This document shows positions 1,925 through 62,597 of a DNA stretch of 64,000 bases, piece after piece. Where the stretch lies: assembly GCA_010365135.1 (NCBI GenBank), contig JAAFGY010000001.1:11419-75418 (forward strand), given 5' to 3'. The DNA comes from Flavobacterium sp. Its GTDB lineage: Bacteria; Bacteroidota; Bacteroidia; Flavobacteriales; Flavobacteriaceae. The notes below the pieces were generated by a model. That model saw only the letters and a list, made by a program, of their open reading frames with translations. It did not search any database and was not told where the DNA came from. The position numbers and the translations under genes are program-made. Numbering within the stretch: the stretch's first letter is position 1; each line of letters starts with the position of its first letter.

Positions 1925-1985
1925 ACCATTAAGGAATTAAGGATGATTAAGTATGAACGCTTAATTTTCTTAATTTCTTAATGGT
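1925..1985. repeat. Intergenic inverted array with ACCATTAAG...CTTAATGGT termini
   Basis: Perfect 9-bp terminal inverted repeat; three TTAAG units on the left arm and three CTTAA units on the right arm. Confidence 0.75.
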
Positions 1986-8239: not shown

Positions 8240-8390
8240 CCCTAGCCCTGAGTGAAGTGGAAATCCTTGTGAAAAGAAAGGCTAATTTTTTCTTGCCAAA
8301 AAAGAGCGACCACCGGAAGCTCCTTTTTGGGTTTAGAAAAATAGCCTTTATTGAGCAAGATTGAAACGGAAGGCAGGAAACAGCTCCTGA
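8240..8390 (+). repeat. Long nested-hairpin element (Flavobacterium repeat, possibly Flavo-1-like RNA)
   Basis: Nested pairings CCTG/CAGG, AATC/GATT, CTTG/CAAG, AAAGGCTA/TAGCCTTT, TTTTTCT/AGAAAAA, CCAAAAA/TTTTTGG, GAGC/GCTC. The Flavo-1 resemblance is from memory only. Confidence 0.6.
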
Positions 8391-18661: not shown

Positions 18662-18768
18662 AGATTAACGGTTTTAAATTGCAGATTTATTCGTTTTACT
18701 GATCTTTCCAATCTGAAATCTTCTCCACCAATCAAAAATCAAAAATCGTTAATCAAAAATCTAAAATC
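18662..18768. repeat. Heptamer-periodic intergenic array (AATC family)
   Basis: AATC at 18730, 18737, 18744, 18751, 18758, 18765 (exact period 7); degenerate complementary left arm with AGAT at 18662 and 18683. Confidence 0.8.
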
Positions 18769-33703: not shown

Positions 33704-34033
33704 ATGATTAAAGTTTCTGATACTGCCAAAAAGAAAATCATCGATTTAATGAAAGACGATGGTTTCGATGCTGCAATAGATTACGTGAGAGTAGGCGTAA
33801 AAAGTGGTGGATGCTCCGGATTGTCTTACGATTTAAAGTTTGACAAAAACAAAGGCCAAGACGATAAAATTTTTGTGGACAACGATATAACAATTGCCGT
33901 GGAGAAAAAATCATTCCTCTACTTAGCCGGAACAATTCTCGAATTTTCTGGAGGATTAAACGGAAAAGGGTTTGTTTTCAATAACCCCAATGCGAGCAGA
34001 ACTTGTGGATGCGGAGAGAGTTTCTCACTTTAA
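33704..34033 (+). CDS. sufA: A-type Fe-S carrier (SufA/IscA, HesB family)
   Basis: SGGCSGLSY and CGCGESF motifs. Confidence 0.9.
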   Translation: MIKVSDTAKKKIIDLMKDDGFDAAIDYVRVGVKSGGCSGLSYDLKFDKNKGQDDKIFVDNDITIAVEKKSFLYLAGTILEFSGGLNGKGFVFNNPNASRTCGCGESFSL

Positions 34034-34034
34034 A

Positions 34035-34117
34035 ATTAAATGATTGAAAAATTTAAAGATTTAAAGAGCTTCTAGCAGTTTAATTTTTCAATTTTTCAAT
34101 TTTTAAATCTTTTAATA
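34035..34117. repeat. Octamer-periodic inverted array between sufA and sufB
   Basis: Left arm ATTAAATG ATTGAAAA ATTTAAAG ATTTAAAG; complementary TTTCAAT/TTTAAAT units on the right. Confidence 0.7.
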
Positions 34118-35618: not shown

Positions 35619-35813
35619 ATGGAACTCATTTTAAAAAACGTTAAGAAAAAAGATTTACCTGTACTGAAATCTTTGGCAAAATCATTGGGTTTTGAAATTG
35701 AAAAAGAAGAAAAACCGTATAATCCAGAATTTGTAAAAGAAATTTTGGAGGCTGAACAAAGCATCAAAGATGGAAAAGGAGTTAAAATCAAATTAGAAGA
35801 TTTGTGGAAGTAA
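35619..35813 (+). CDS. Putative antitoxin (DUF2683-like)
   Basis: 64 aa; EKPYNPEFVKEILEAE...LEDLWK; overlaps the toxin start by 10 nt. Confidence 0.75.
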   Translation: MELILKNVKKKDLPVLKSLAKSLGFEIEKEEKPYNPEFVKEILEAEQSIKDGKGVKIKLEDLWK

Positions 35814-36076
35814 TTTATTCAGAAAAAGCTCAAAAAGATAGAGATTTTTGGAAAAAATCTGGAAATAAAGCAATAATGAATAAAATATCTGCTTTAATTA
35901 AAGATATTACCTTGCATCCTTTTGAAGGAATTGGAAAACCCGAGCCTTTAAAATATCATTTGACTGGTCGTTGGTCAAGAAGAATTAATCACGAACATCG
36001 GATTATTTATAAAGTTACCGAAAAAAACACAATTGAGATATTAGACATTTTATCATTAAAAGGGCATTACGAATAA
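35804..36076 (+). CDS. yoeB: Txe/YoeB-family toxin (GTG start)
   Basis: PFEGIGKPEPLKY, WSRRINHEHRIIY, C-terminal KGHYE. Confidence 0.93.
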   Translation: MEVIYSEKAQKDRDFWKKSGNKAIMNKISALIKDITLHPFEGIGKPEPLKYHLTGRWSRRINHEHRIIYKVTEKNTIEILDILSLKGHYE

Positions 36077-36083
36077 TTTTTTA

Positions 36084-36572
36084 ATGAAAAACACAACAGT
36101 AATCATCGTAGGAACTTCTCGAAACAACGGAAATACCACAAAAATAGCCGCTGAAATTGCAAATCAATATGCTATTGATGTAATTAATTTGAATGATTAT
36201 CAATTTTCATATTATGATTATGAAGGCAAAAATAGAGACGATGATTTTCAACCTTTAATAAAATCGATAATAGAAAAATACGACACTGTAATTTTTGCCA
36301 CACCCAATTATTGGTATAATATGAGTGGGATTATGAAGGTTTTTTTCGATAGATGTACAGATATAATTCTAATCGAAAAAGAGACCGGAAAAAGTCTTAA
36401 AGGAAAAAAATGTGCCGTGATTTCAAATTCTCATACAGATGAAATGGAGTCAGACTTTTATATTCCTTTTCGAAAATCGGCCGAATATTTAGGAATGAAA
36501 TACATAGGAAATGCTCATTTTAACGCAGATAAATTTAACCTAAAAGATAAAATAGAATTAGCTTTTATATAA
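36084..36572 (+). CDS. Flavodoxin-family protein / NADPH-dependent FMN reductase
   Basis: GTSRNNGNT and ATPNYWYNMSGIMKVFFDR motifs. Confidence 0.85.
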   Translation: MKNTTVIIVGTSRNNGNTTKIAAEIANQYAIDVINLNDYQFSYYDYEGKNRDDDFQPLIKSIIEKYDTVIFATPNYWYNMSGIMKVFFDRCTDIILIEKETGKSLKGKKCAVISNSHTDEMESDFYIPFRKSAEYLGMKYIGNAHFNADKFNLKDKIELAFI

Positions 36573-36583
36573 AATAAAAAACA

Positions 36584-37339
36584 ATGTTATCAATAAAAAA
36601 TCTACACGCCTCTATTGGAGGAGATAAAGAAATATTAAAAGGAATTAACCTTGAAGTTAAAGCGGGAGAAATCCATGCGATTATGGGGCCAAATGGTGCC
36701 GGAAAAAGTACTCTTGCTTCAATTATTGCGGGAAACGAAAACTACGAAGTGACCCAGGGAGAAATCTTTTTGGACGGCGAAGATATTTCAGAATTGGCCC
36801 CCGAAGAAAGAGCCCACAAAGGGGTTTTCCTTTCGTTCCAATATCCTGTTGAAATTCCTGGAGTTTCGGTAACCAACTTTATGAGAACGGCAATCAACGA
36901 AACTCGTAAGGCCAATAAACTCGAAGAAATGCCAGCAAATGAAATGCTGAAATTCATTCGCGAAAAATCGGAATTACTGGAAATTGACCGTAAATTTTTG
37001 TCTCGTTCGTTAAATGAAGGGTTTTCTGGTGGCGAGAAAAAACGCAACGAAATTTTCCAAATGGCAATGCTAGAACCAAAACTCGCCATCCTTGACGAAA
37101 CCGATTCTGGATTAGATATTGATGCTTTGAGAATCGTTGCCAATGGTGTAAACAAACTCAAAAGTGACAAAAACGCCATCATCGTAATCACGCATTACCA
37201 AAGACTTTTGGACTATATTGTTCCTAATTTTGTTCACGTTTTATACAATGGAAAAATTGTAAAATCCGGAGGAAAAGAATTGGCTTACGAACTCGAAGAA
37301 AAAGGTTACGACTGGATTAAACAAGAACAAGAAGCTTAA
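36584..37339 (+). CDS. sufC: Fe-S cluster assembly ATPase SufC
   Basis: [41 protein letters not shown] motifs. Confidence 0.97.
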
Positions 37340-37343
37340 AAAT

Positions 37344-37373
37344 AGTCGAAAGTCGCAAGTCATAAAGTCAAAA
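37344..37373 (+). repeat. Left heptamer arm (AGTC family) of the four-helix-bundle cassette
   Basis: AGTC at 37344, 37351, 37358, 37366. Confidence 0.75.
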
Positions 37374-37385
37374 GAAAAAAATGGG

Positions 37386-37753
37386 ATGGGTAAATTTAGT
37401 TCTTTCGAAGAAATTAATTCTTGGCAAAAATCAAGGATATTCAACAAAAGAATATATCTAATTACAGAAACATCAAGTTTTAAAAAAGACTTTGATTTTG
37501 TTAGACAAATTAGACGAGCATCAATTTCAATATCATCAAATATAGCTGAAGGTTTTGAAAGAAATACAGATAAAGAGTTTGTATACTTTTTATATGTTGC
37601 AAAAGCTTCTGCGGGGGAAGTTAGCCCCAATTATATTTGGCATACGATTTAGAATACATAACAAAAGAAGATTTCGAAATATTATTAGAATCAGTAACAG
37701 AAATATCAAAATTGTTAAGTGGTTTTATAAAATATTTGAGTCTAAAGTCATAA
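37386..37753 (+). pseudogene. Four-helix-bundle protein (IVS-protein family) with a 1-nt frameshift
   Basis: DFVRQIRRASISISSNIAEGFER and YVAKASAGEV in one frame; QLYLAYDLEYITKEDFEILLESVTEISKLLSGFIKYLSLKS-stop(37753) continues in another frame from about 37625. Confidence 0.82.
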
Positions 37754-37768
37754 AGTAATTTTGCTTTT

Positions 37769-37844
37769 GACTTTCAGACTTGTAATAAACAAAATAGTTG
37801 ACAATCTTGAGTCTTTTGACTTTTGACATTCGACTTTAAGACTT
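37769..37844 (+). repeat. Right heptamer arm (GACT family) of the four-helix-bundle cassette
   Basis: GACT at 37769 and 37777; GAC at 37818, 37825, 37832, 37840. Confidence 0.75.
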
Positions 37845-37851
37845 AAATATA

Positions 37852-39168
37852 ATGGAATTGAAAGAAAAATTACTATCGTCTTTTATGGCTTTTGAAGAGC
37901 AAGTGGATGTTCATTCCGAACTTCACAATGTGCGAACTGAGGCTTTAAAAAACTTTGAAAATAAAGGTTTCCCCACCAAAAAAGAGGAATCTTGGAAATA
38001 TACTTCGCTAAATGCCATCTTAAAAAATGACTTCACGGTATTTCCAAAGGACGAATTGACGATCGAATTCAGGGATGTAAAAAAATATTTTATCCACGAA
38101 ATCGACACTTACAAAGTGGTTTTTGTTGACGGCGTTTTTAGCTCGCATTTGTCTTCGACTACACACGAAGGAGTAGATATTTGTTTGATGTCATCGGCAT
38201 TGCACAAGCCCAAATACAAAATGGTTATCGACAATTATTTTAATAAAATTGCTAGTAAAGACGAGAGTTTAACGACATTGAATACGGCTTTTGCCAATGA
38301 AGGAGCCTATATTAACATCCCGAAAAGTACTGTAGTTCGAAAACCTATTGAGATTATGTATTTCTCGACAGGCAACGAAGCGGCTCTTATGGTTCAACCT
38401 CGAAATTTAATAATTGTTGGAGAAAATTCTCATGTTCAAATCATCGAAAGACATCAAAGTTTGAACGAAAATCCAGTTTTGACCAATTCAGTTACTGAGA
38501 TTTTTGCCCAAAAACGCGCCATCGTCGATTTCTATAAAATCCAAAACGACAATCATGAAGCCAATTTAATTGATAATACTTACGTTTCCCAAAAACAAGA
38601 AAGCCACGTTTCAGTTCACACTTTCTCTTTTGGAGGAAATTTGACTAGAAACAATTTGAATTTCTATCATTTTGGAGAAAGATTGACTAGCACACTTAAC
38701 GGAATTACGATTATTGGAGACAAACAACACGTAGATCATTATACTTTAGTACATCACGCCGCGCCAAATTGCGAAAGCTTTCAAGATTATAAAGGCATTT
38801 TTTCGGACAATTCTACGGGTGTTTTCAACGGAAAAGTTTATGTCGAAAAAGAAGCTCAAAAAACCAATGCTTTCCAAAAAAGCAACAACATTTTGTTGGG
38901 CGATAGATCAACAATAAATGCAAAACCACAATTAGAAATTTTTGCCGATGACGTTAAATGTTCGCACGGTTGCACGGTAGGACAACTCGATGAAACTGCT
39001 ATGTTCTATATGCAATCCCGAGGAATTCCTAAGAAAGAAGCTAAAGCCTTATTGATGTACGCGTTTTCAAATGCGGTTATCGAAAGCATCAAAATCCCAG
39101 AATTGAAACAACGAATTACCAAAATCATCGCTTTGAAATTAGGTGTGAAATTGGGATTTGATTTGTAG
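37852..39168 (+). CDS. sufD: Fe-S cluster assembly protein SufD
   Basis: FPTKKEESWKYT, LNTAFANEG, KPQLEIFADDVKCSHGCTVG motifs. Confidence 0.96.
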   Translation: MELKEKLLSSFMAFEEQVDVHSELHNVRTEALKNFENKGFPTKKEESWKYTSLNAILKNDFTVFPKDELTIEFRDVKKYFIHEIDTYKVVFVDGVFSSHLSSTTHEGVDICLMSSALHKPKYKMVIDNYFNKIASKDESLTTLNTAFANEGAYINIPKSTVVRKPIEIMYFSTGNEAALMVQPRNLIIVGENSHVQIIERHQSLNENPVLTNSVTEIFAQKRAIVDFYKIQNDNHEANLIDNTYVSQKQESHVSVHTFSFGGNLTRNNLNFYHFGERLTSTLNGITIIGDKQHVDHYTLVHHAAPNCESFQDYKGIFSDNSTGVFNGKVYVEKEAQKTNAFQKSNNILLGDRSTINAKPQLEIFADDVKCSHGCTVGQLDETAMFYMQSRGIPKKEAKALLMYAFSNAVIESIKIPELKQRITKIIALKLGVKLGFDL

Positions 39169-39282: not shown

Positions 39283-40629
39283 TTACCTCTTTAAACTTTT
39301 AACAATCCCACTCAACAACCTATTAAAATCAAAATCAGGAGCTTCTGTTAAACCCATTCGCACGATTACTAAATCATGGCTTGGGAAAATGGCAACCATT
39401 TGGCCTTGATATCCGCTGCAATACAACATATCTTTAGGAACATCAGCAAATTTTCCGCCGGCATTGAGCCAAAAATGAGCTCCATATTTCCCGTTTGAAG
39501 TATTGGTCGGTGTAGCGACATATTTTGCCCAATTTGTGTCAAATAGTTGCTCGCCGTTCCAATTGCCTTTGTGCAAATACAGTAATCCAAATTTTGCCCA
39601 ATCACGCGTCGTTGCCCAACCGTACGAGGAACCTACATAATTTCCAGCCATATCCGTTTCCACTATCATCGAATTCATTCCAATTTTATCAATCAAGGCC
39701 GAATACCAAAAATCTAAATATTCCTGATGCGTTTTGAATTGTTTTAGCAAAATTCCGGACAATAAATTGGTCGTTCCGGAGGAATAATTCCAATGGGAAT
39801 TGGGTTTGAATTGCGCCGGTTTTTTCAATTGAGACTGGCTCATATCTTCCGCTTGAAAAAGCATTTGAGTGGCATCACAAATTTTGGTATAATCTTCTTC
39901 CCATTCCAAACCGCTGTTCATATTGAGCAAATTGGCGATGGTGATTTTGGAGCGTTCATCATTTGCCCATTCGGTAATTGGAGCAGGTTTAAAAACATCT
40001 AATTTGCCTTGTTTTTGCATAATTCCATAGATAGTTGCCGTAATACTTTTAGTCATTGACCAGCCCAAAATTTTGGAGTTTTTATTGAAACCCGTGTCGT
40101 ATTTCTCGGCAATAATTTTGTCTTTGTAAATAACCAAAACAGCACGAGTTCTTTTACTTTTTTGGTCTTTTACGTCAAAAGCATTGGCAACAGCCGCATT
40201 CAGTTTTGTGTAATCAATGTTGGCAAAAAAAGTGTCTTTTGGCTCGTTATTTCCATAGGGAAAAGGTAAATTGTTGCTGATTTTGGTTCTTTTTGGAACT
40301 TCATACGGTTTTGAAATATCAAAAGCATCGTTGATTAAAGTTGCCCCTAAACCTTCTCTGTAAATGGCTTTCCGTTCTTTTAAACCATAAACCGAACTAG
40401 TGACAAATTTTCCGTTTTCGTTAATTTTGTTTTTCGCCAAAGTAATCATCTTGATATCATTGTCTCCTGTCTCAATTATATCTTGCGAACGATGATCTAT
40501 AAAATGTCCCGAAGCCATACTTTTGGCCGAAAAACCTGAGATTAAATCCAGCTTTGGATACGTGGTGTAGCCAAAATAAATTAGGAATAACAAAACGACA
40601 AGACCAAGAATTTTGAATATTTTTTTCAT
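39283..40629 (-). CDS. Serine hydrolase (beta-lactamase class C-like), membrane-anchored
   Basis: WSMTKS (SxxK), WNYSSG (YxS), GYQGQ motifs; N-terminal TM segment. Confidence 0.88.
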   Translation of the reverse strand: MKKIFKILGLVVLLFLIYFGYTTYPKLDLISGFSAKSMASGHFIDHRSQDIIETGDNDIKMITLAKNKINENGKFVTSSVYGLKERKAIYREGLGATLINDAFDISKPYEVPKRTKISNNLPFPYGNNEPKDTFFANIDYTKLNAAVANAFDVKDQKSKRTRAVLVIYKDKIIAEKYDTGFNKNSKILGWSMTKSITATIYGIMQKQGKLDVFKPAPITEWANDERSKITIANLLNMNSGLEWEEDYTKICDATQMLFQAEDMSQSQLKKPAQFKPNSHWNYSSGTTNLLSGILLKQFKTHQEYLDFWYSALIDKIGMNSMIVETDMAGNYVGSSYGWATTRDWAKFGLLYLHKGNWNGEQLFDTNWAKYVATPTNTSNGKYGAHFWLNAGGKFADVPKDMLYCSGYQGQMVAIFPSHDLVIVRMGLTEAPDFDFNRLLSGIVKSLKR

Positions 40630-40744
40630 TTGAAGCGAAATTTTGACCAATTTAGCAAAAATAGCATAGAGAAATCATATTTTGTTATAAATTAATACTG
40701 TTAAAAATTGTAAAATCTTGCTATTGAAACCCACCTATATTCAC

Positions 40745-43235: not shown

Positions 43236-43316
43236 AGTTGTAAAGTTAGAAAGTCGTAAAGTCTGAAAGATAGCAATTTTATGACATTCGACTTTTGACA
43301 TTCGACTTTAAGACTT
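43236..43316. repeat. Gene-less AGTC/GACT heptamer inverted array
   Basis: Left AAAGTTAG AAAGTCGT AAAGTCTG; right GAC at 43283, 43290, 43297, 43304, 43312; 43290-43316 is identical to 37818-37844. Confidence 0.85.
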
Positions 43317-47535: not shown

Positions 47536-47632
47536 AAGATTTTAGAGTGTAGATTTTAGATCGGTTGGAATAGAAGGTAAATTCAAAAGTTAGATTTTCT
47601 GTGATTGTAAATTCTGAAATCTGCAATCTAAA
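47536..47632. repeat. Heptamer inverted array (AGAT/ATCT family)
   Basis: AGAT/AGAG at 47537, 47544, 47551, 47558; TTCT/ATCT at 47612, 47619, 47626. Confidence 0.75.
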
Positions 47633-62084: not shown

Positions 62085-62162
62085 ATTGAAAGATTAAATG
62101 ATTGAAAGATTTAAAAATTCCTCTTGATTCTTTAAATTTTTCAATCTTTAAATTATTAAATT
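62085..62162. repeat. Octamer-periodic inverted array between dut and the nucleotidyltransferase gene
   Basis: ATTGAAAG ATTAAATG ATTGAAAG ATTTAAAA ... CTTTAAAT TTTTCAAT CTTTAAAT; 22/23 identity with 34035-34057. Confidence 0.78.
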
Positions 62163-62597
62163 TTATTTCACTCCCGTACTTCCAAAACCGCCTTCTCCAC
62201 GAGATGTTTCGGATAATTCCTGAACTTCAATCCATTCGGCTCTTTCATGTTTGGCGATGATGAGTTGGGCTATGCGTTCGCCATTTTCTATAACGAAAAC
62301 TTCATTGGATAAATTTACTAAAATCACTCCAATTTCTCCACGATAATCAGCATCGACAGTTCCGGGCGAATTGAGAACTGTAATTCCTTTTTTGGCTGCC
62401 AAGCCGCTTCTCGGGCGAACTTGGGCTTCGGAACCTATTGGTAATTCTATGAAAAGCCCTGTTTTTACAATGGCTCTTTCTAATGGTTTCAATGTTATTG
62501 ATTCCGTAAGATTGGCACGCAAATCCATTCCTGCCGAAGCGATGGTTTCATAGTTGGGTAAGTCGTGTTGCGATTTGTTGATGATGTTAATTTTCAT
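62163..62597 (-). CDS. dut: dUTP diphosphatase
   Basis: [39 protein letters not shown] motifs. Confidence 0.98.

What the first reader, a model, noticed from the sequence alone, without database searches (positions are those of the whole stretch)
37340..37851. Four-helix-bundle gene enclosed by inverted heptamer arrays inside the suf operon
Seen: between sufC and sufD a ~120-codon four-helix-bundle gene has AGTCnnn units on the left (period 7,7,8) and complementary GACTnnn units on the right. Established: this family was first found in 23S rRNA intervening sequences and is structurally related to the DGR accessory protein Avd; its function is unknown. Inference: the arms could fold the transcript into a long stem that loops out the cassette, as in an IVS, or mark it as a mobile or excisable unit moved in trans. 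No transposase or target duplication is evident.
Basis: partly seen in the sequence, partly recalled or inferred. Interest (0 to 1): 0.72.

Follow-up and report, generated by a model that had tools for sequence, protein, structure and literature searches.

The report
Four-helix gene bracketed by heptamer arrays
A small, frameshifted gene for an Avd-like four-helix-bundle protein sits between sufC and sufD, enclosed by inverted arrays of 7-8-base repeats; the same packaging surrounds this gene family in many phyla, which ties a protein of unknown function to the unexplained heptamer repeat arrays of bacterial genomes.

Summary
AGTC units at 37344/51/58/66 (spacing 7, 7, 8) and complementary GACT units at 37818-37843 enclose a PF05635/TIGR02436 gene (37386-37753), which is broken by a 1-nt deletion. 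Zero such arrays are expected by chance.

- **Turnover.** In 80 Flavobacterium species the sufC-sufD spacer is 7 nt in 6. It is a cargo-less periodic hairpin in 52, this cassette in 12, a ~40%-identical four-helix-bundle (FHB) cassette in 9, and a PIN toxin pair in 1.
- **Association.** All 30 FHB genes in that 1.56 Mb lie in suf junctions inside periodic arrays. Of 77 diverse metagenomic FHB genes, about 78% have flanking 7-9-nt arrays, against 17% of control windows.
- **Array properties.** Arms hold about 4-5 units and have the same period on both sides in 40/46 loci. Unit type tracks the protein clade, and neighbouring genes are co-oriented.
- **Xanthomonas.** The crystallised XCC0516 orthologue lies between accB and accC, flanked by the GGGAATC heptamers known to occur about 186 times per genome.
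- **Fold and selection.** The arms are predicted to close the cassette in 12/13 orthologues. The gene is old and constrained (dN/dS 0.06).

Best reading: a cognate repeat-protein module with an intervening-sequence (IVS)-like fold. How it works is inferred. I found no paper that makes this link.

The parts
36584..37339 (+). sufC (ABC ATPase), the upstream co-oriented neighbour. Its stop codon lies 4 nt before the first AGTC unit.
   Evidence: ORF. Orthologues carry ABC_tran.
37344..37380 (+). Left arm L: AGTCGAA AGTCGCA AGTCATAA AGTCAAAAG followed by an A-run. It has four units with a conserved AGTC core and variable 3-4-nt spacers.
   Evidence: 0 expected by chance. TRF gives 4.3 copies of period 7. 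The arm is conserved across type A orthologues and pairs with R2 in the MFE and centroid folds.
37386..37753 (+). Four-helix-bundle (PF05635/TIGR02436, Avd-like) gene, disrupted by a 1-nt deletion in the C-run at about 37625-37628. As it stands it reads as an 88-aa truncated product.
   Evidence: The frameshift is reproduced in two assemblies. The AF2 model of an intact 94%-identical relative has pLDDT 89 and four helices. Foldseek gives TM 0.83 to 2rld/2gsc and 0.77 to Avd 4dwl/8ub7.
37738..37782 (+). Local hairpin just after the gene. L' (GAGTCTAAAGTCATAAAG) supplies the last codons and the TAA stop, and pairs with R1 (CTTTTGACTTTCAGACT).
   Evidence: Inverted repeats I1 and I12. The hairpin appears in the MFE and centroid folds. 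L':R1 duplex -16.5 kcal/mol, z -4.0.
37791..37813 (+). Conserved spacer motif AAAATAGTTGACAATCTTGAGTC (L''). It is a degenerate direct copy of the start of the left arm.
   Evidence: Direct repeat D3, 74% over 23 nt. The motif aaaaYAGTYGACAATC..GAGTC is near-invariant in most type A orthologues; L002 and L020 lack it.
37813..37843 (+). Right arm R2: TCTTTTGACT TTTGACA TTCGACT TTAAGACT. It is complementary to L and ends 8 nt before the sufD ATG.
   Evidence: 3.6 copies, period 7. L:R2 duplex -31.5 kcal/mol, z -7.0, with 27 pairs in the whole-cassette MFE. It is the most conserved non-coding stretch among orthologues.
37852..39168 (+). sufD, the downstream co-oriented neighbour.
   Evidence: ORF. 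It is 89-95% identical to Flavobacterium SufD proteins.
43236..43315 (+). Cargo-less hairpin of the same AGTC/GACT unit family, between an FeS_assembly_P gene and a DUF2480 gene. Its right arm is nearly identical to R2.
34029..34116 (+). Cargo-less periodic hairpin (ATTGAAAG / CTTTAAAT units, period 8) filling the sufA-sufB spacer. In two other species an FHB gene sits between arms of this same unit type at this same junction.
   Evidence: The filled homologous site is in L010 and L014.

Best explanation
**What the unit is.** The ~510-bp sufC-sufD insert is one copy, here decaying, of a cognate repeat-protein module. A PF05635 four-helix-bundle (FHB) gene is co-transcribed with a host operon and bracketed by inverted arrays of about 4-5 short units. 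Each unit has a conserved 4-nt core plus a variable spacer, with a period of 7-9 nt. The unit sequence is specific to the protein clade.

**Shown**
- The architecture at this locus.
- Strong statistical enrichment of arrays across the family.
- Co-orientation with neighbouring genes.
- The clade-to-unit correspondence.
- Cargo-less hairpins or arrays of the same unit type at other intergenic sites of the same genomes.
- Long vertical residence under purifying selection.
- Turnover of the spacer between species.

**Predicted.** In the operon transcript the outer arms L and R2 pair into a stem of about 27 bp with regular interruptions. The stem loops the gene out, as in a 23S rRNA intervening sequence (IVS). 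This juxtaposes the end of sufC and the start of sufD.

**Inferred.** The arrays are binding platforms for the homopentameric Avd-like protein, one core per subunit. They serve for autoregulation or packaging of its own message and for action on the dispersed cargo-less copies. Gain, loss and replacement happen at the DNA level. One route is recombination between the repeated arms, which would delete the gene and leave a plain hairpin. The other is homologous exchange through the conserved flanking genes. The nearest working analogy is a RAYT gene flanked by its own REP sequences.
For: **Local architecture**
- establish the arrays.
- The predicted closing stem has z -5.3 and is conserved in 12 of 13 orthologues, with duplex energies of -22 to -39 kcal/mol.

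**Flavobacterium comparison (1.56 Mb)**
- All 30 FHB genes lie in suf junctions, all co-oriented, and each is inside periodic arrays.
- In L010 and L014 the gene sits between arms of the same unit type as the hairpin that is empty at this junction in the window.
- Spacers of 7 nt and 12 nt exist, so the hairpins are additions to a minimal state.
- AGTC/GACT arrays elsewhere are commoner in type-A-positive loci: 4/13 against 2/68. These loci are not phylogenetically independent.

**Metagenomic FHB loci**
- TRF finds arrays in 60/77 upstream and 61/77 downstream flanks, against 88/511 control windows.
- The period is the same on both sides in 40/46 loci.
- Strict complementary arrays flank 25/74 genes, against 2/957 random intervals.
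- Inverted similarity of the flanks exceeds the permuted 95th percentile in 37/69 loci.
- Copy number stays at 4.3-4.8 as the period goes from 7 to 9, while array length grows from 32 to 38 nt.
- Neighbours are co-oriented in 49/50 upstream and 48/57 downstream cases.
- Protein clades share unit type and period even where the neighbouring genes differ.

**Selection on cassette and arms**
- dN/dS is 0.06, and R2 is nearly invariant despite dS of about 1.

**Xanthomonas**
- The order is accB, GGGAATC x4.4, FHB, ATTCCCn x4.3, accC, with four more arrays of the same unit within 20 kb.
- Published data report 186 such arrays per genome, a preference for 4 units, conserved positions 1-4 and 6, arrays abutting stop codons, and 70 inverted pairs. 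Repeat #15 of that study overlaps the start of XCC0516 (PMC4692102).

**The protein**
- Relatives 2gsc and 2rld each have 5 chains in the entry. XCC0516 is described as a homopentamer (PMC4990558).
- The fold matches Avd in the DGR ribonucleoprotein.
Against: - No binding, processing or mobility was observed. Only contig-level RNA data were available, and they show an uninterrupted transcript.
- A single-strand binder would see different sequences in the two arms (AGUC against GACU).
- Some arrays have more than 10 units, so a strict one-pentamer model fails for them.
- There is no excess of G.U-compatible mismatches on the sense strand (27 against 47; the test was contaminated by unpaired spacers).
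- Some cargo-less hairpins barely fold. In L005 only 4-bp cores pair (z -0.45).
- No compensatory changes are visible between L and R2. Variation in the L spacers is uncompensated.
- The family has no recognisable catalytic motif, no target-site duplication was seen, and PADLOC gave no hit.
- Enrichment of shared units elsewhere in metagenomic contigs is weak: 8/32 against 2.6 expected, driven by one contig.
- About 10-20% of FHB loci, mostly high-GC, show no arrays.
Confidence: 0.45

Rival explanations
1. **RNA-only IVS-like selfish cassette.** The arms matter only as a complementary stem. The stem insulates the insert in the operon transcript and is cut by RNase III, as in 23S rRNA intervening sequences. 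The protein does not recognise the repeats. Unit type tracks protein clade only because arms and gene are inherited or transferred together. Periodicity is a by-product of how such stems arise, through slippage and inverted duplication.
For: - FHB genes inside 23S IVSs are flanked by a 28-bp stem that RNase III cleaves (PMC4990558).
- The predicted closing stem is conserved in 12/13 orthologues.
- Co-orientation with the host operon is strict.
- The cassette is co-transcribed with its neighbours.
- FHB genes also sit between cas genes, alongside toxin-antitoxin guests (PMC3936711). The suf junctions likewise host YoeB and PIN toxin pairs.
Against: - It does not explain the conserved 4-nt core with free spacers.
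- It does not explain the near-constant 4-5 units across periods 7-9.
- It does not explain hairpins whose spacers do not pair at all (L005).
- It does not explain the roughly 186 dispersed arrays of the same unit in Xanthomonas, many of them single-armed.
- It does not explain purifying selection on the protein (dN/dS 0.06).
Confidence: 0.25
2. **Host hairpins first, gene as passenger.** Periodic hairpins are ordinary host elements of operon spacers, for example for mRNA stability or for coupling translation of adjacent genes. FHB genes are unrelated guests that are tolerated only when they land in a hairpin loop. On this view the association arises from selective retention.
For: - Cargo-less hairpins fill the same spacers in 52/80 species and lie between co-directional genes, from stop codon to just before the next start.
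- L010 and L014 look like an insertion into the loop of a hairpin that is empty elsewhere.
- Other guest genes use the same junctions without arrays.
Against: - Unit type and period follow the FHB protein clade where genomic contexts differ.
- Types A and B carry extra arms in fixed arrangements (L, gene, L'R1, L'', R2 against LR, gene, R'). These travel with the gene between junctions.
- Minimal 7-12-nt spacers show that the hairpins are not needed by the operon.
- Toxin-antitoxin guests at the same junctions are not flanked by arrays, so a loop is not required for tolerance.
Confidence: 0.17
3. **Non-functional slippage repeats.** The arrays are microsatellites of 7-9 nt, generated by replication slippage in AT-rich spacers. 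Their position next to this gene carries no meaning.
For: Heptameric simple repeats are reported as generally over-represented in bacterial genomes and have been attributed to polymerase slippage (discussion in PMC4692102).
Against: - Zero expected by chance locally.
- Complementary arrays flank 25/74 FHB genes against 2/957 random intervals.
- The arms are conserved at near-invariant level across dS of about 1.
- The period is the same on both sides in 40/46 loci.
- Copy number clusters at 4-5 rather than drifting.
Confidence: 0.03

Closest known systems
ORF-bearing intervening sequences (IVS) of 23S rRNA (Leptospira, Coxiella S23p)
   Same: Both carry a PF05635 ORF of about 110-125 codons inside a ~430-510-nt insert bordered by complementary ends. 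Those ends are predicted to form a stem of about 27-28 bp in a long host transcript. Both show sporadic distribution among relatives, and the ORF can decay (PMC4990558).
   Different: Here the host is a protein-coding operon spacer (sufC-sufD), not helix 25 or 45 of 23S rRNA. The arms are arrays of 7-8-nt units with regular mismatches, whereas the Coxiella stem is described as near-perfect with one mismatch and one bulge and periodicity is not mentioned. RNase III excision is untested here. The gene is under strong purifying selection in most orthologues.
REPIN-RAYT systems (REP hairpins and their single-copy REP-associated tyrosine transposase)
   Same: A mostly vertically inherited, constrained gene is flanked in inverted orientation by the same short repeats that are dispersed as hairpins in intergenic regions of that genome. 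Repeat type is specific to the protein clade (PMC3116915, PMC3337134).
   Different: The protein is a ~120-aa four-helix bundle with no HUH/Y1 nuclease motif. The repeats are tandem arrays of 4-5 short units, not single 20-40-nt palindromes. No transposition chemistry or duplication event has been shown.
Avd, the accessory protein of diversity-generating retroelements (DGRs)
   Same: It is a homologous pentamer-forming four-helix bundle. PHROGs matches 'Avd protein of DGR' at 1.8e-6 and Foldseek gives TM 0.77 to 4dwl/8ub7. In DGRs it is part of a ribonucleoprotein.
   Different: No reverse transcriptase, template repeat or variable repeat is nearby. The called genes within about 6 kb either side of the cassette in four loci are suf genes and unrelated genes. 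Sequence identity to Avd is only about 14%.
Heptameric intergenic repeat arrays (GGGAATC in Xanthomonas, STRR-type heptamers in Nostoc/Anabaena)
   Same: Both are 7-nt units with a preference for 4 copies and a conserved core with variable positions. Both lie between aligned ORFs and abut stop codons, are often in convergent inverted pairs, and are transcribed (PMC4692102). This matches the arms and cargo-less hairpins here.
   Different: Those arrays were interpreted as G-quadruplex formers and were not linked to any protein. The units here are AT-rich and cannot form G4 structures. I show that the Xanthomonas FHB gene is flanked by those very arrays.

Membership tests
PF05635 / TIGR02436 four-helix-bundle (23S rRNA IVS protein) family | Significant match to the family profile over its full length | tested here: met
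   After the 1-nt repair, Pfam gives 117.7 bits (cut-off 33.8) over profile positions 1-106/106, and TIGR02436 gives 120.7 bits (cut-off 24).
PF05635 / TIGR02436 four-helix-bundle (23S rRNA IVS protein) family | Four-helix up-down bundle fold like 2GSC and 2RLD | tested here: met
   The AF2 model of a 94%-identical intact relative has pLDDT 89 and four long helices. Foldseek gives TM 0.83 and rmsd 1.5-1.7 Å to 2rld and 2gsc. By sequence, E is 2.9e-12 to 2gsc.
PF05635 / TIGR02436 four-helix-bundle (23S rRNA IVS protein) family | Intact reading frame | tested here: not met
   A 1-nt deletion in the C-run at about 37625-37628 splits the ORF into 88-aa and C-terminal parts. The same sequence appears in two assemblies. 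This copy is a pseudogene or makes a truncated product.
23S rRNA intervening sequence (IVS) | Located within a 23S rRNA gene (helix 25 or 45) | tested here: not met
   It lies between sufC and sufD. No rRNA was found in the window. No conserved 23S motifs were found in any fetched FHB locus.
23S rRNA intervening sequence (IVS) | Complementary termini forming a stem that encloses the insert | tested here: met
   This is a prediction only. L:R2 contributes 27 pairs to the MFE and centroid folds (z -5.3). The pairing is present in 12/13 orthologues.
23S rRNA intervening sequence (IVS) | Excision from the transcript by RNase III | not testable with these tools
   Only assembled RNA contigs were available. 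They are continuous across both arms and show no excision joint.
Diversity-generating retroelement (Avd as a component) | Adjacent reverse transcriptase and template/variable repeat pair | tested here: not met
   No RT-family domain appears among the called genes within about 6 kb either side of the cassette in four orthologous loci. The window neighbours are suf genes, a YoeB toxin pair, an FMN reductase and a beta-lactamase-family gene. The only repeats are the short arrays.
REPIN-RAYT system | Gene encodes an HUH/Y1 (IS200/IS605-like) transposase | tested here: not met
   The only family hits are PF05635, TIGR02436 and Avd.
REPIN-RAYT system | Gene flanked by inverted copies of a repeat that is also dispersed in the same genome | tested here: met
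   The window has the arms plus a cargo-less AGTC/GACT hairpin at 43236-43315. A relative has another transcribed locus with the same arms. Xanthomonas has arms plus 4 further arrays within 20 kb, and 186 per genome in the literature.
MITE / classical transposon | Terminal inverted repeats with a target-site duplication, and a transposase in the autonomous copy | tested here: not met
   No duplication is visible when filled, hairpin-only and 7-nt minimal junctions are compared. No transposase is present.

The most novel reading that the evidence does not exclude
PF05635 four-helix-bundle proteins and short-unit tandem arrays (7-9 nt, about 4-5 units, often in inverted pairs) together form a previously unrecognised, cross-phylum repeat-protein system. 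Each pentamer clade recognises its own unit, one core per subunit, in the manner of a TRAP-like ring. The protein is encoded between two of its own sites. It also acts on, or propagates, tens to hundreds of cargo-less arrays in operon spacers. That would explain the long-noted excess of heptameric repeats in bacterial genomes (Xanthomonas GGGAATC, cyanobacterial STRR) and the ORFs of 23S rRNA intervening sequences.
Probability: 0.33. Interest if true: 0.9.

Novelty: new variant of a known kind. Interest (0 to 1): 0.78.

Why it matters
- **An orphan protein family gains a cis partner.** PF05635 is a very large family of unknown function. It is known from 23S rRNA intervening sequences, from DGR Avd homology and from structural genomics. 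Here nearly every non-DGR member examined is packaged between inverted arrays of clade-specific short repeats, which gives a concrete, testable ligand hypothesis.
- **An old repeat puzzle gains a candidate protein.** Heptamer arrays in Xanthomonas, and probably cyanobacteria, were described without any associated protein. The crystallised XCC0516 orthologue sits between two such arrays.
- **Operon junctions behave as turnover hot spots.** Junctions of essential operons (suf, accBC, gmd-fcl, cas) harbour small guest genes and hairpins that are replaced rapidly between species. This matters for annotation and for understanding expression between adjacent genes in an operon, especially in Bacteroidota, which (from general knowledge, not tested here) make little use of Shine-Dalgarno sequences.
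- **A tractable model exists.** F. johnsoniae carries an intact orthologue of this exact cassette.

Tried and rejected
- **Rfam.** Gathering thresholds on the whole window and permissive E-values on 37250-37950 gave no family for the arms. The only hits were tRNAs and Flavo-1 elsewhere.
- **Promoter and terminator scan.** Nothing above chance. There is no terminator in the cassette, so I rejected a terminator or attenuator reading.
- **RNA-level test of excision.**
  - The window comes from a metagenome with no matching RNA run.
  - Runs of a 93%-similar organism exist only as contigs. They show co-transcription, and one 'joint' turned out to be a paralogous cargo-less hairpin, not an excision product.
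- **G.U against A.C mismatch test for the transcribed strand.** There was no sense-strand signal, but the test is confounded by unpaired spacer positions.
- **Shared units elsewhere on metagenomic contigs.** The signal was weak and driven by one contig.
- **23S rRNA around the fetched FHB loci.** None found, so I could not check whether rRNA IVS arms are periodic. The 1993 Leptospira paper is not held.
- **Defence-system models.** PADLOC gave no hit.
- **Viral contigs.** Only 3 FHB loci were found. Arrays are present there too, but the sample is too small to use.
- **Literature.** Searches on PF05635, TIGR02436, four-helix-bundle with repeats, heptamer with Flavobacterium, and STRR found no paper linking this family to flanking arrays.
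- **Programmed frameshift.** Rejected. Relatives read straight through with different codons at the site.
Full report
**1. What is at the coordinates**

sufC ends at 37339. Four AGTC units follow at 37344, 37351, 37358 and 37366 (spacing 7, 7, 8), then an A-run. A three-unit version of the pattern occurs nowhere else in the 64-kb window, and 100 dinucleotide-preserving shuffles gave none.

An ORF starts at 37386. Once one C is restored in the C4 run at about 37625-37628, it reads through to a TAA at 37751-37753. It then matches PF05635 (117.7 bits) and TIGR02436 (120.7 bits) over their full lengths. Two independent assemblies of the source metagenome carry the same frameshift, so this copy is genuinely broken.

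- L' (37738-37757) is a second left-type stretch. It encodes the last residues and the stop codon.
- R1 (37759-37782) is complementary to L', and the two form a local hairpin.
- L'' (37791-37813) is a conserved motif, AAAATAGTTGACAATCTTGAGTC.
- R2 (37813-37843) is the outer right arm. It ends 8 nt before the sufD ATG at 37852.

**2. Predicted fold**

Folding 37336-37856 as RNA gives -116 kcal/mol (z -5.3). In both the MFE and the centroid, L pairs with R2 and encloses the whole cassette, while L' pairs with R1.

In 12 of 13 orthologous cassettes the MFE shows the same closure, with 17-30 L:R2 pairs. Duplex energies are -22 to -39 kcal/mol, with z from -4.6 to -9.4. The stem is interrupted regularly: the AGUC/GACU cores and adjacent A-U pairs form, and one or two spacer positions per unit do not.

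I found no Rfam family, promoter or terminator signal.

**3. The junction in relatives**

A SufD query returned 80 Flavobacterium-type genomes that are 89-95% identical. The sufC-sufD spacer takes five states:

| State of the spacer | Species |
|---|---|
| 7 nt | 6 |
| 63-96-nt cargo-less periodic hairpin | 52 |
| This 'type A' cassette (84-91% protein identity) | 12 |
| A 'type B' FHB cassette, only ~40% identical | 9 |
| PIN toxin plus antitoxin pair | 1 |

- **Empty hairpins.** They keep the format of 3-5 units per arm at period 7-8. The unit differs by species: AGTTTGC/ATAACT, GTTTAAA/TTTAAAC, TTTGTAG/CATAAAC, GTTGTCG/ATCAACC, AGTCTAA/GACAT.
- **Other FHB genes.** Eight more sit at sufA-sufB and sufB-sufC. 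All 30 FHB genes in the 1.56 Mb are in suf junctions, co-oriented with the operon, and inside periodic arrays.
- **Filled and empty versions of one site.** In L010 and L014 the gene lies between ATTGAAAG/CTTTCAAT arms. The window has the same unit type, empty, at the same junction (34029-34116).
- **Fixed arm orders.** Type B is always [L][R]-gene-[R']. Type A is always [L]-gene-[L' R1]-[L'']-[R2]. Direct-repeat arms therefore flank the gene, and recombination between them would delete it and leave a plain hairpin (inference).
- **sufA-sufB spacer.** It ranges from 12 to about 650 nt and hosts at least six hairpin families.
- **Where periodic hairpins lie.** Within these loci they concentrate in suf junctions.

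**4. Age and constraint**

Across 13 type A orthologues, median dN/dS is 0.060 for the FHB gene and 0.046 for sufD. dS is 0.78 against 1.08, and the two are correlated (r 0.62). The cassette is therefore an old, vertically inherited and functional resident, not a recent arrival.

The window copy is disrupted, and so are L020 and L056. R2 and the motif before it are almost invariant across this divergence. In L the AGTC cores are conserved while the spacers vary without compensation in R2.

RNA-seq contigs from a 93%-similar organism run unbroken through sufC, the FHB gene and sufD at uniform depth. The one apparent 'joint' is another transcribed locus that carries a cargo-less AGTC/GACT hairpin.

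**5. Family-wide test**

A profile of four FHB types retrieved 80 diverse metagenomic loci, 35-57% identical, with GC from 0.28 to 0.65. By eye nearly all are flanked by arrays.

| Measure | FHB loci | Control |
|---|---|---|
| TRF array of period 6-10, upstream flank | 60/77 | 88/511 windows (any position) |
| TRF array of period 6-10, downstream flank | 61/77 | same control windows |
| Strict exact-core complementary arrays on both sides | 25/74 | 2/957 random intervals |
| Inverted flank similarity above the permuted 95th percentile | 37/69 | 3.5 expected |

Further properties:
- The period is 7 (33 loci), 8 (13-15) or 9 (9-12), and it is the same on both sides in 40/46 loci.
- Copy number clusters at 4-5. 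Medians are 4.6, 4.8 and 4.3 for periods 7, 8 and 9, while array length rises from 32 to 38 nt.
- The upstream array typically ends within about 25 nt of the start codon. The downstream array often supplies the stop codon.
- Neighbours are co-oriented in 49/50 upstream and 48/57 downstream cases.
- Protein clades share unit type and period:
  - AGTC/GAGTC for the type A clade
  - AAAGTYnnn at period 9 for a clade of 114-aa proteins
  - GTTTMAA for type B
  - ATTGAAAG at period 8
  - AAGATTRC at period 8
  - GATTTGA for a high-GC clade of 160-aa proteins

  For several members of the 114-aa clade the downstream genes I read off the flanks differ, for example a guanylate kinase-like, a permease-like and a glycosyltransferase-like gene.
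- Recurrent hosts include the suf junctions, gmd-fcl and a permease gene.

**6. Link to published heptamer arrays**

Rehm et al. (PMC4692102) described 186 GGGAATC arrays in X. campestris. They reported a clear preference for four units, with positions 1-4 and 6 conserved. The arrays lie between aligned ORFs, close to stop codons, and are transcribed, and 70 of them form convergent inverted pairs. The authors interpreted them as G-quadruplex formers. Their supplementary table places repeat #15 six nt from bccP and overlapping the start of XCC0516, which is the crystallised FHB protein 2GSC.

I fetched an X. campestris locus and confirmed the order accB, GGGAATC x4.4, FHB, ATTCCCn x4.3, accC. 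Four further arrays of the same unit lie within 20 kb.

In the Flavobacterium set, AGTC/GACT arrays away from the junction occur in 4/13 type-A-positive loci against 2/68 others (p 0.005, not phylogenetically independent).

**7. The protein**

- **Fold.** The AF2 model of an intact relative has pLDDT 89 and four helices. Foldseek gives TM 0.83 to 2rld and 2gsc, then 0.77 to Avd in 4dwl and in the DGR ribonucleoprotein 8ub7. PHROGs matches 'Avd protein of DGR'.
- **Oligomer.** Both crystal entries contain five chains. XCC0516 is described as a homopentamer (PMC4990558).
- **Context.** No RT lies nearby, and there is no PADLOC hit.
- **Other operons.** The literature also places FHB genes between cas genes, alongside toxin-antitoxin guests (PMC3936711).

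**8. Interpretation**

*Shown.* The architecture is real and non-random. It holds across the family, tracks the protein clade, lies inside transcribed operons, and is old and constrained. It is also accompanied by cargo-less copies.

*Predicted.* A closing stem like that of an rRNA IVS.

*Inferred.* I commit to a cognate repeat-protein module in which the arrays are binding platforms for the pentamer. Five observations point that way:
- the conserved core with free spacers;
- the near-constant 4-5 units;
- the clade-specific units;
- hairpins whose spacers do not pair at all (L005, z -0.45);
- the dispersed single arrays of Xanthomonas.

None of these is explained by a stem alone. The closest working analogy is REPIN-RAYT, but the defining transposase is absent, so this is an analogy and not membership. 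It is also not an rRNA IVS by location, nor a DGR component by context.

*Weaknesses.* There are no binding or processing data. The two arms present different single-strand sequences. Some arrays are far longer than five units. There is no G.U signal. About 10-20% of loci lack arrays.

*Rivals.* These are set out with their tests in the Rival explanations section:
- an RNA-only IVS-like cassette (0.25);
- a passenger in pre-existing host hairpins (0.17);
- meaningless slippage repeats (0.03).

**9. Novelty**

Searches of the held literature found the components described separately: IVS ORFs, Avd homology, heptamer arrays, and FHB genes in cas loci. I found no statement that PF05635 genes are bracketed by inverted short-unit arrays or linked to genomic heptamer repeats. 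I rate it a new variant of a known kind, with a one-in-three chance that it marks a new class of repeat-protein system.

Noticed in passing
window 35619-36572: Three guest genes sit between sufB and sufC: a DUF2683 protein plus a YoeB-like toxin (a type II toxin-antitoxin pair), then an FMN reductase or flavodoxin-like gene. The FMN reductase is present in some F. johnsoniae-group loci and absent in others.
   Followed up: partly
L021 9383-9992: In one Flavobacterium MAG the sufC-sufD spacer is filled by a DUF2281 antitoxin-like gene plus a PIN-domain toxin, without periodic arrays. The suf junctions are a general haven for small selfish genes.
   Followed up: yes
window 1928-1982, 34029-34116, 43236-43315, 47538-47632, 62085-62165: Five cargo-less hairpins are built from 7-9-nt units with different unit sequences. 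The four whose neighbours I checked lie between co-directional genes and fill the spacer from the stop codon to just before the next start; the neighbours of 47538-47632 were not examined. Predicted stability ranges from very strong (1920-1990, z -10) to marginal.
   Followed up: partly
window 18730-18768: A one-armed array of AATCAAA x5.6 ends 4 nt before the ATG of a gene that looks YraN/UPF0102-like by eye (not checked against any family library). No complementary partner array was seen.
   Followed up: no
L168 9929-9959 and 10343-10372 (X. campestris): The orthologue of the crystallised XCC0516 lies between accB and accC. It is flanked by GGGAATC x4.4 and the complementary ATTCCCn x4.3. 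More arrays of the same unit are at 2366/2439 (an inverted pair), 13760, 17911 and 18011. The published study of these repeats did not connect them to this gene.
   Followed up: yes
L015 7020-7070; many metagenomic loci (e.g. L096, L099, L100, L106, L123): The downstream array often encodes the last residues and the stop codon of the FHB protein. In L015 the tail ...KINQKNQKD is encoded by AAAAATC units. The C-terminal tails of these proteins are therefore partly repeat-derived.
   Followed up: partly
L020, L022, L027, L042, L046, L069, L074: sufA-sufB spacer: A different, GC-rich, non-periodic REP-like hairpin family (…cccctaataggagttcccccttcgggggttagggggc…) occupies the same spacer in some species. 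It stands out against the roughly 36% GC background.
   Followed up: no
window 39283-40650 (minus strand): A beta-lactamase-family (serine hydrolase) gene lies antisense between sufD and sufS. This is conserved in the F. johnsoniae-group loci, so the 'suf operon' is split there.
   Followed up: no
window 8240-8384: A Flavo-1 RNA match just above the gathering score (45.4 against 42 bits). The 76-position model spans 145 nt, which implies a large insertion.
   Followed up: no
run X2, laid on window 37314-37343: The source sample also holds a more abundant co-resident Flavobacterium strain. Its sufC is followed by a GTTTGAAGTTTAAAG-type hairpin instead of this cassette, so the junction may differ between co-resident populations in one community.
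   Followed up: partly
L165 and L166 (IMG/VR contigs): FHB genes on putative viral contigs are flanked by arrays of the palindromic unit CAACGTT/GAACGTT. One appears to follow directly after another FHB-like gene end.
   Followed up: no
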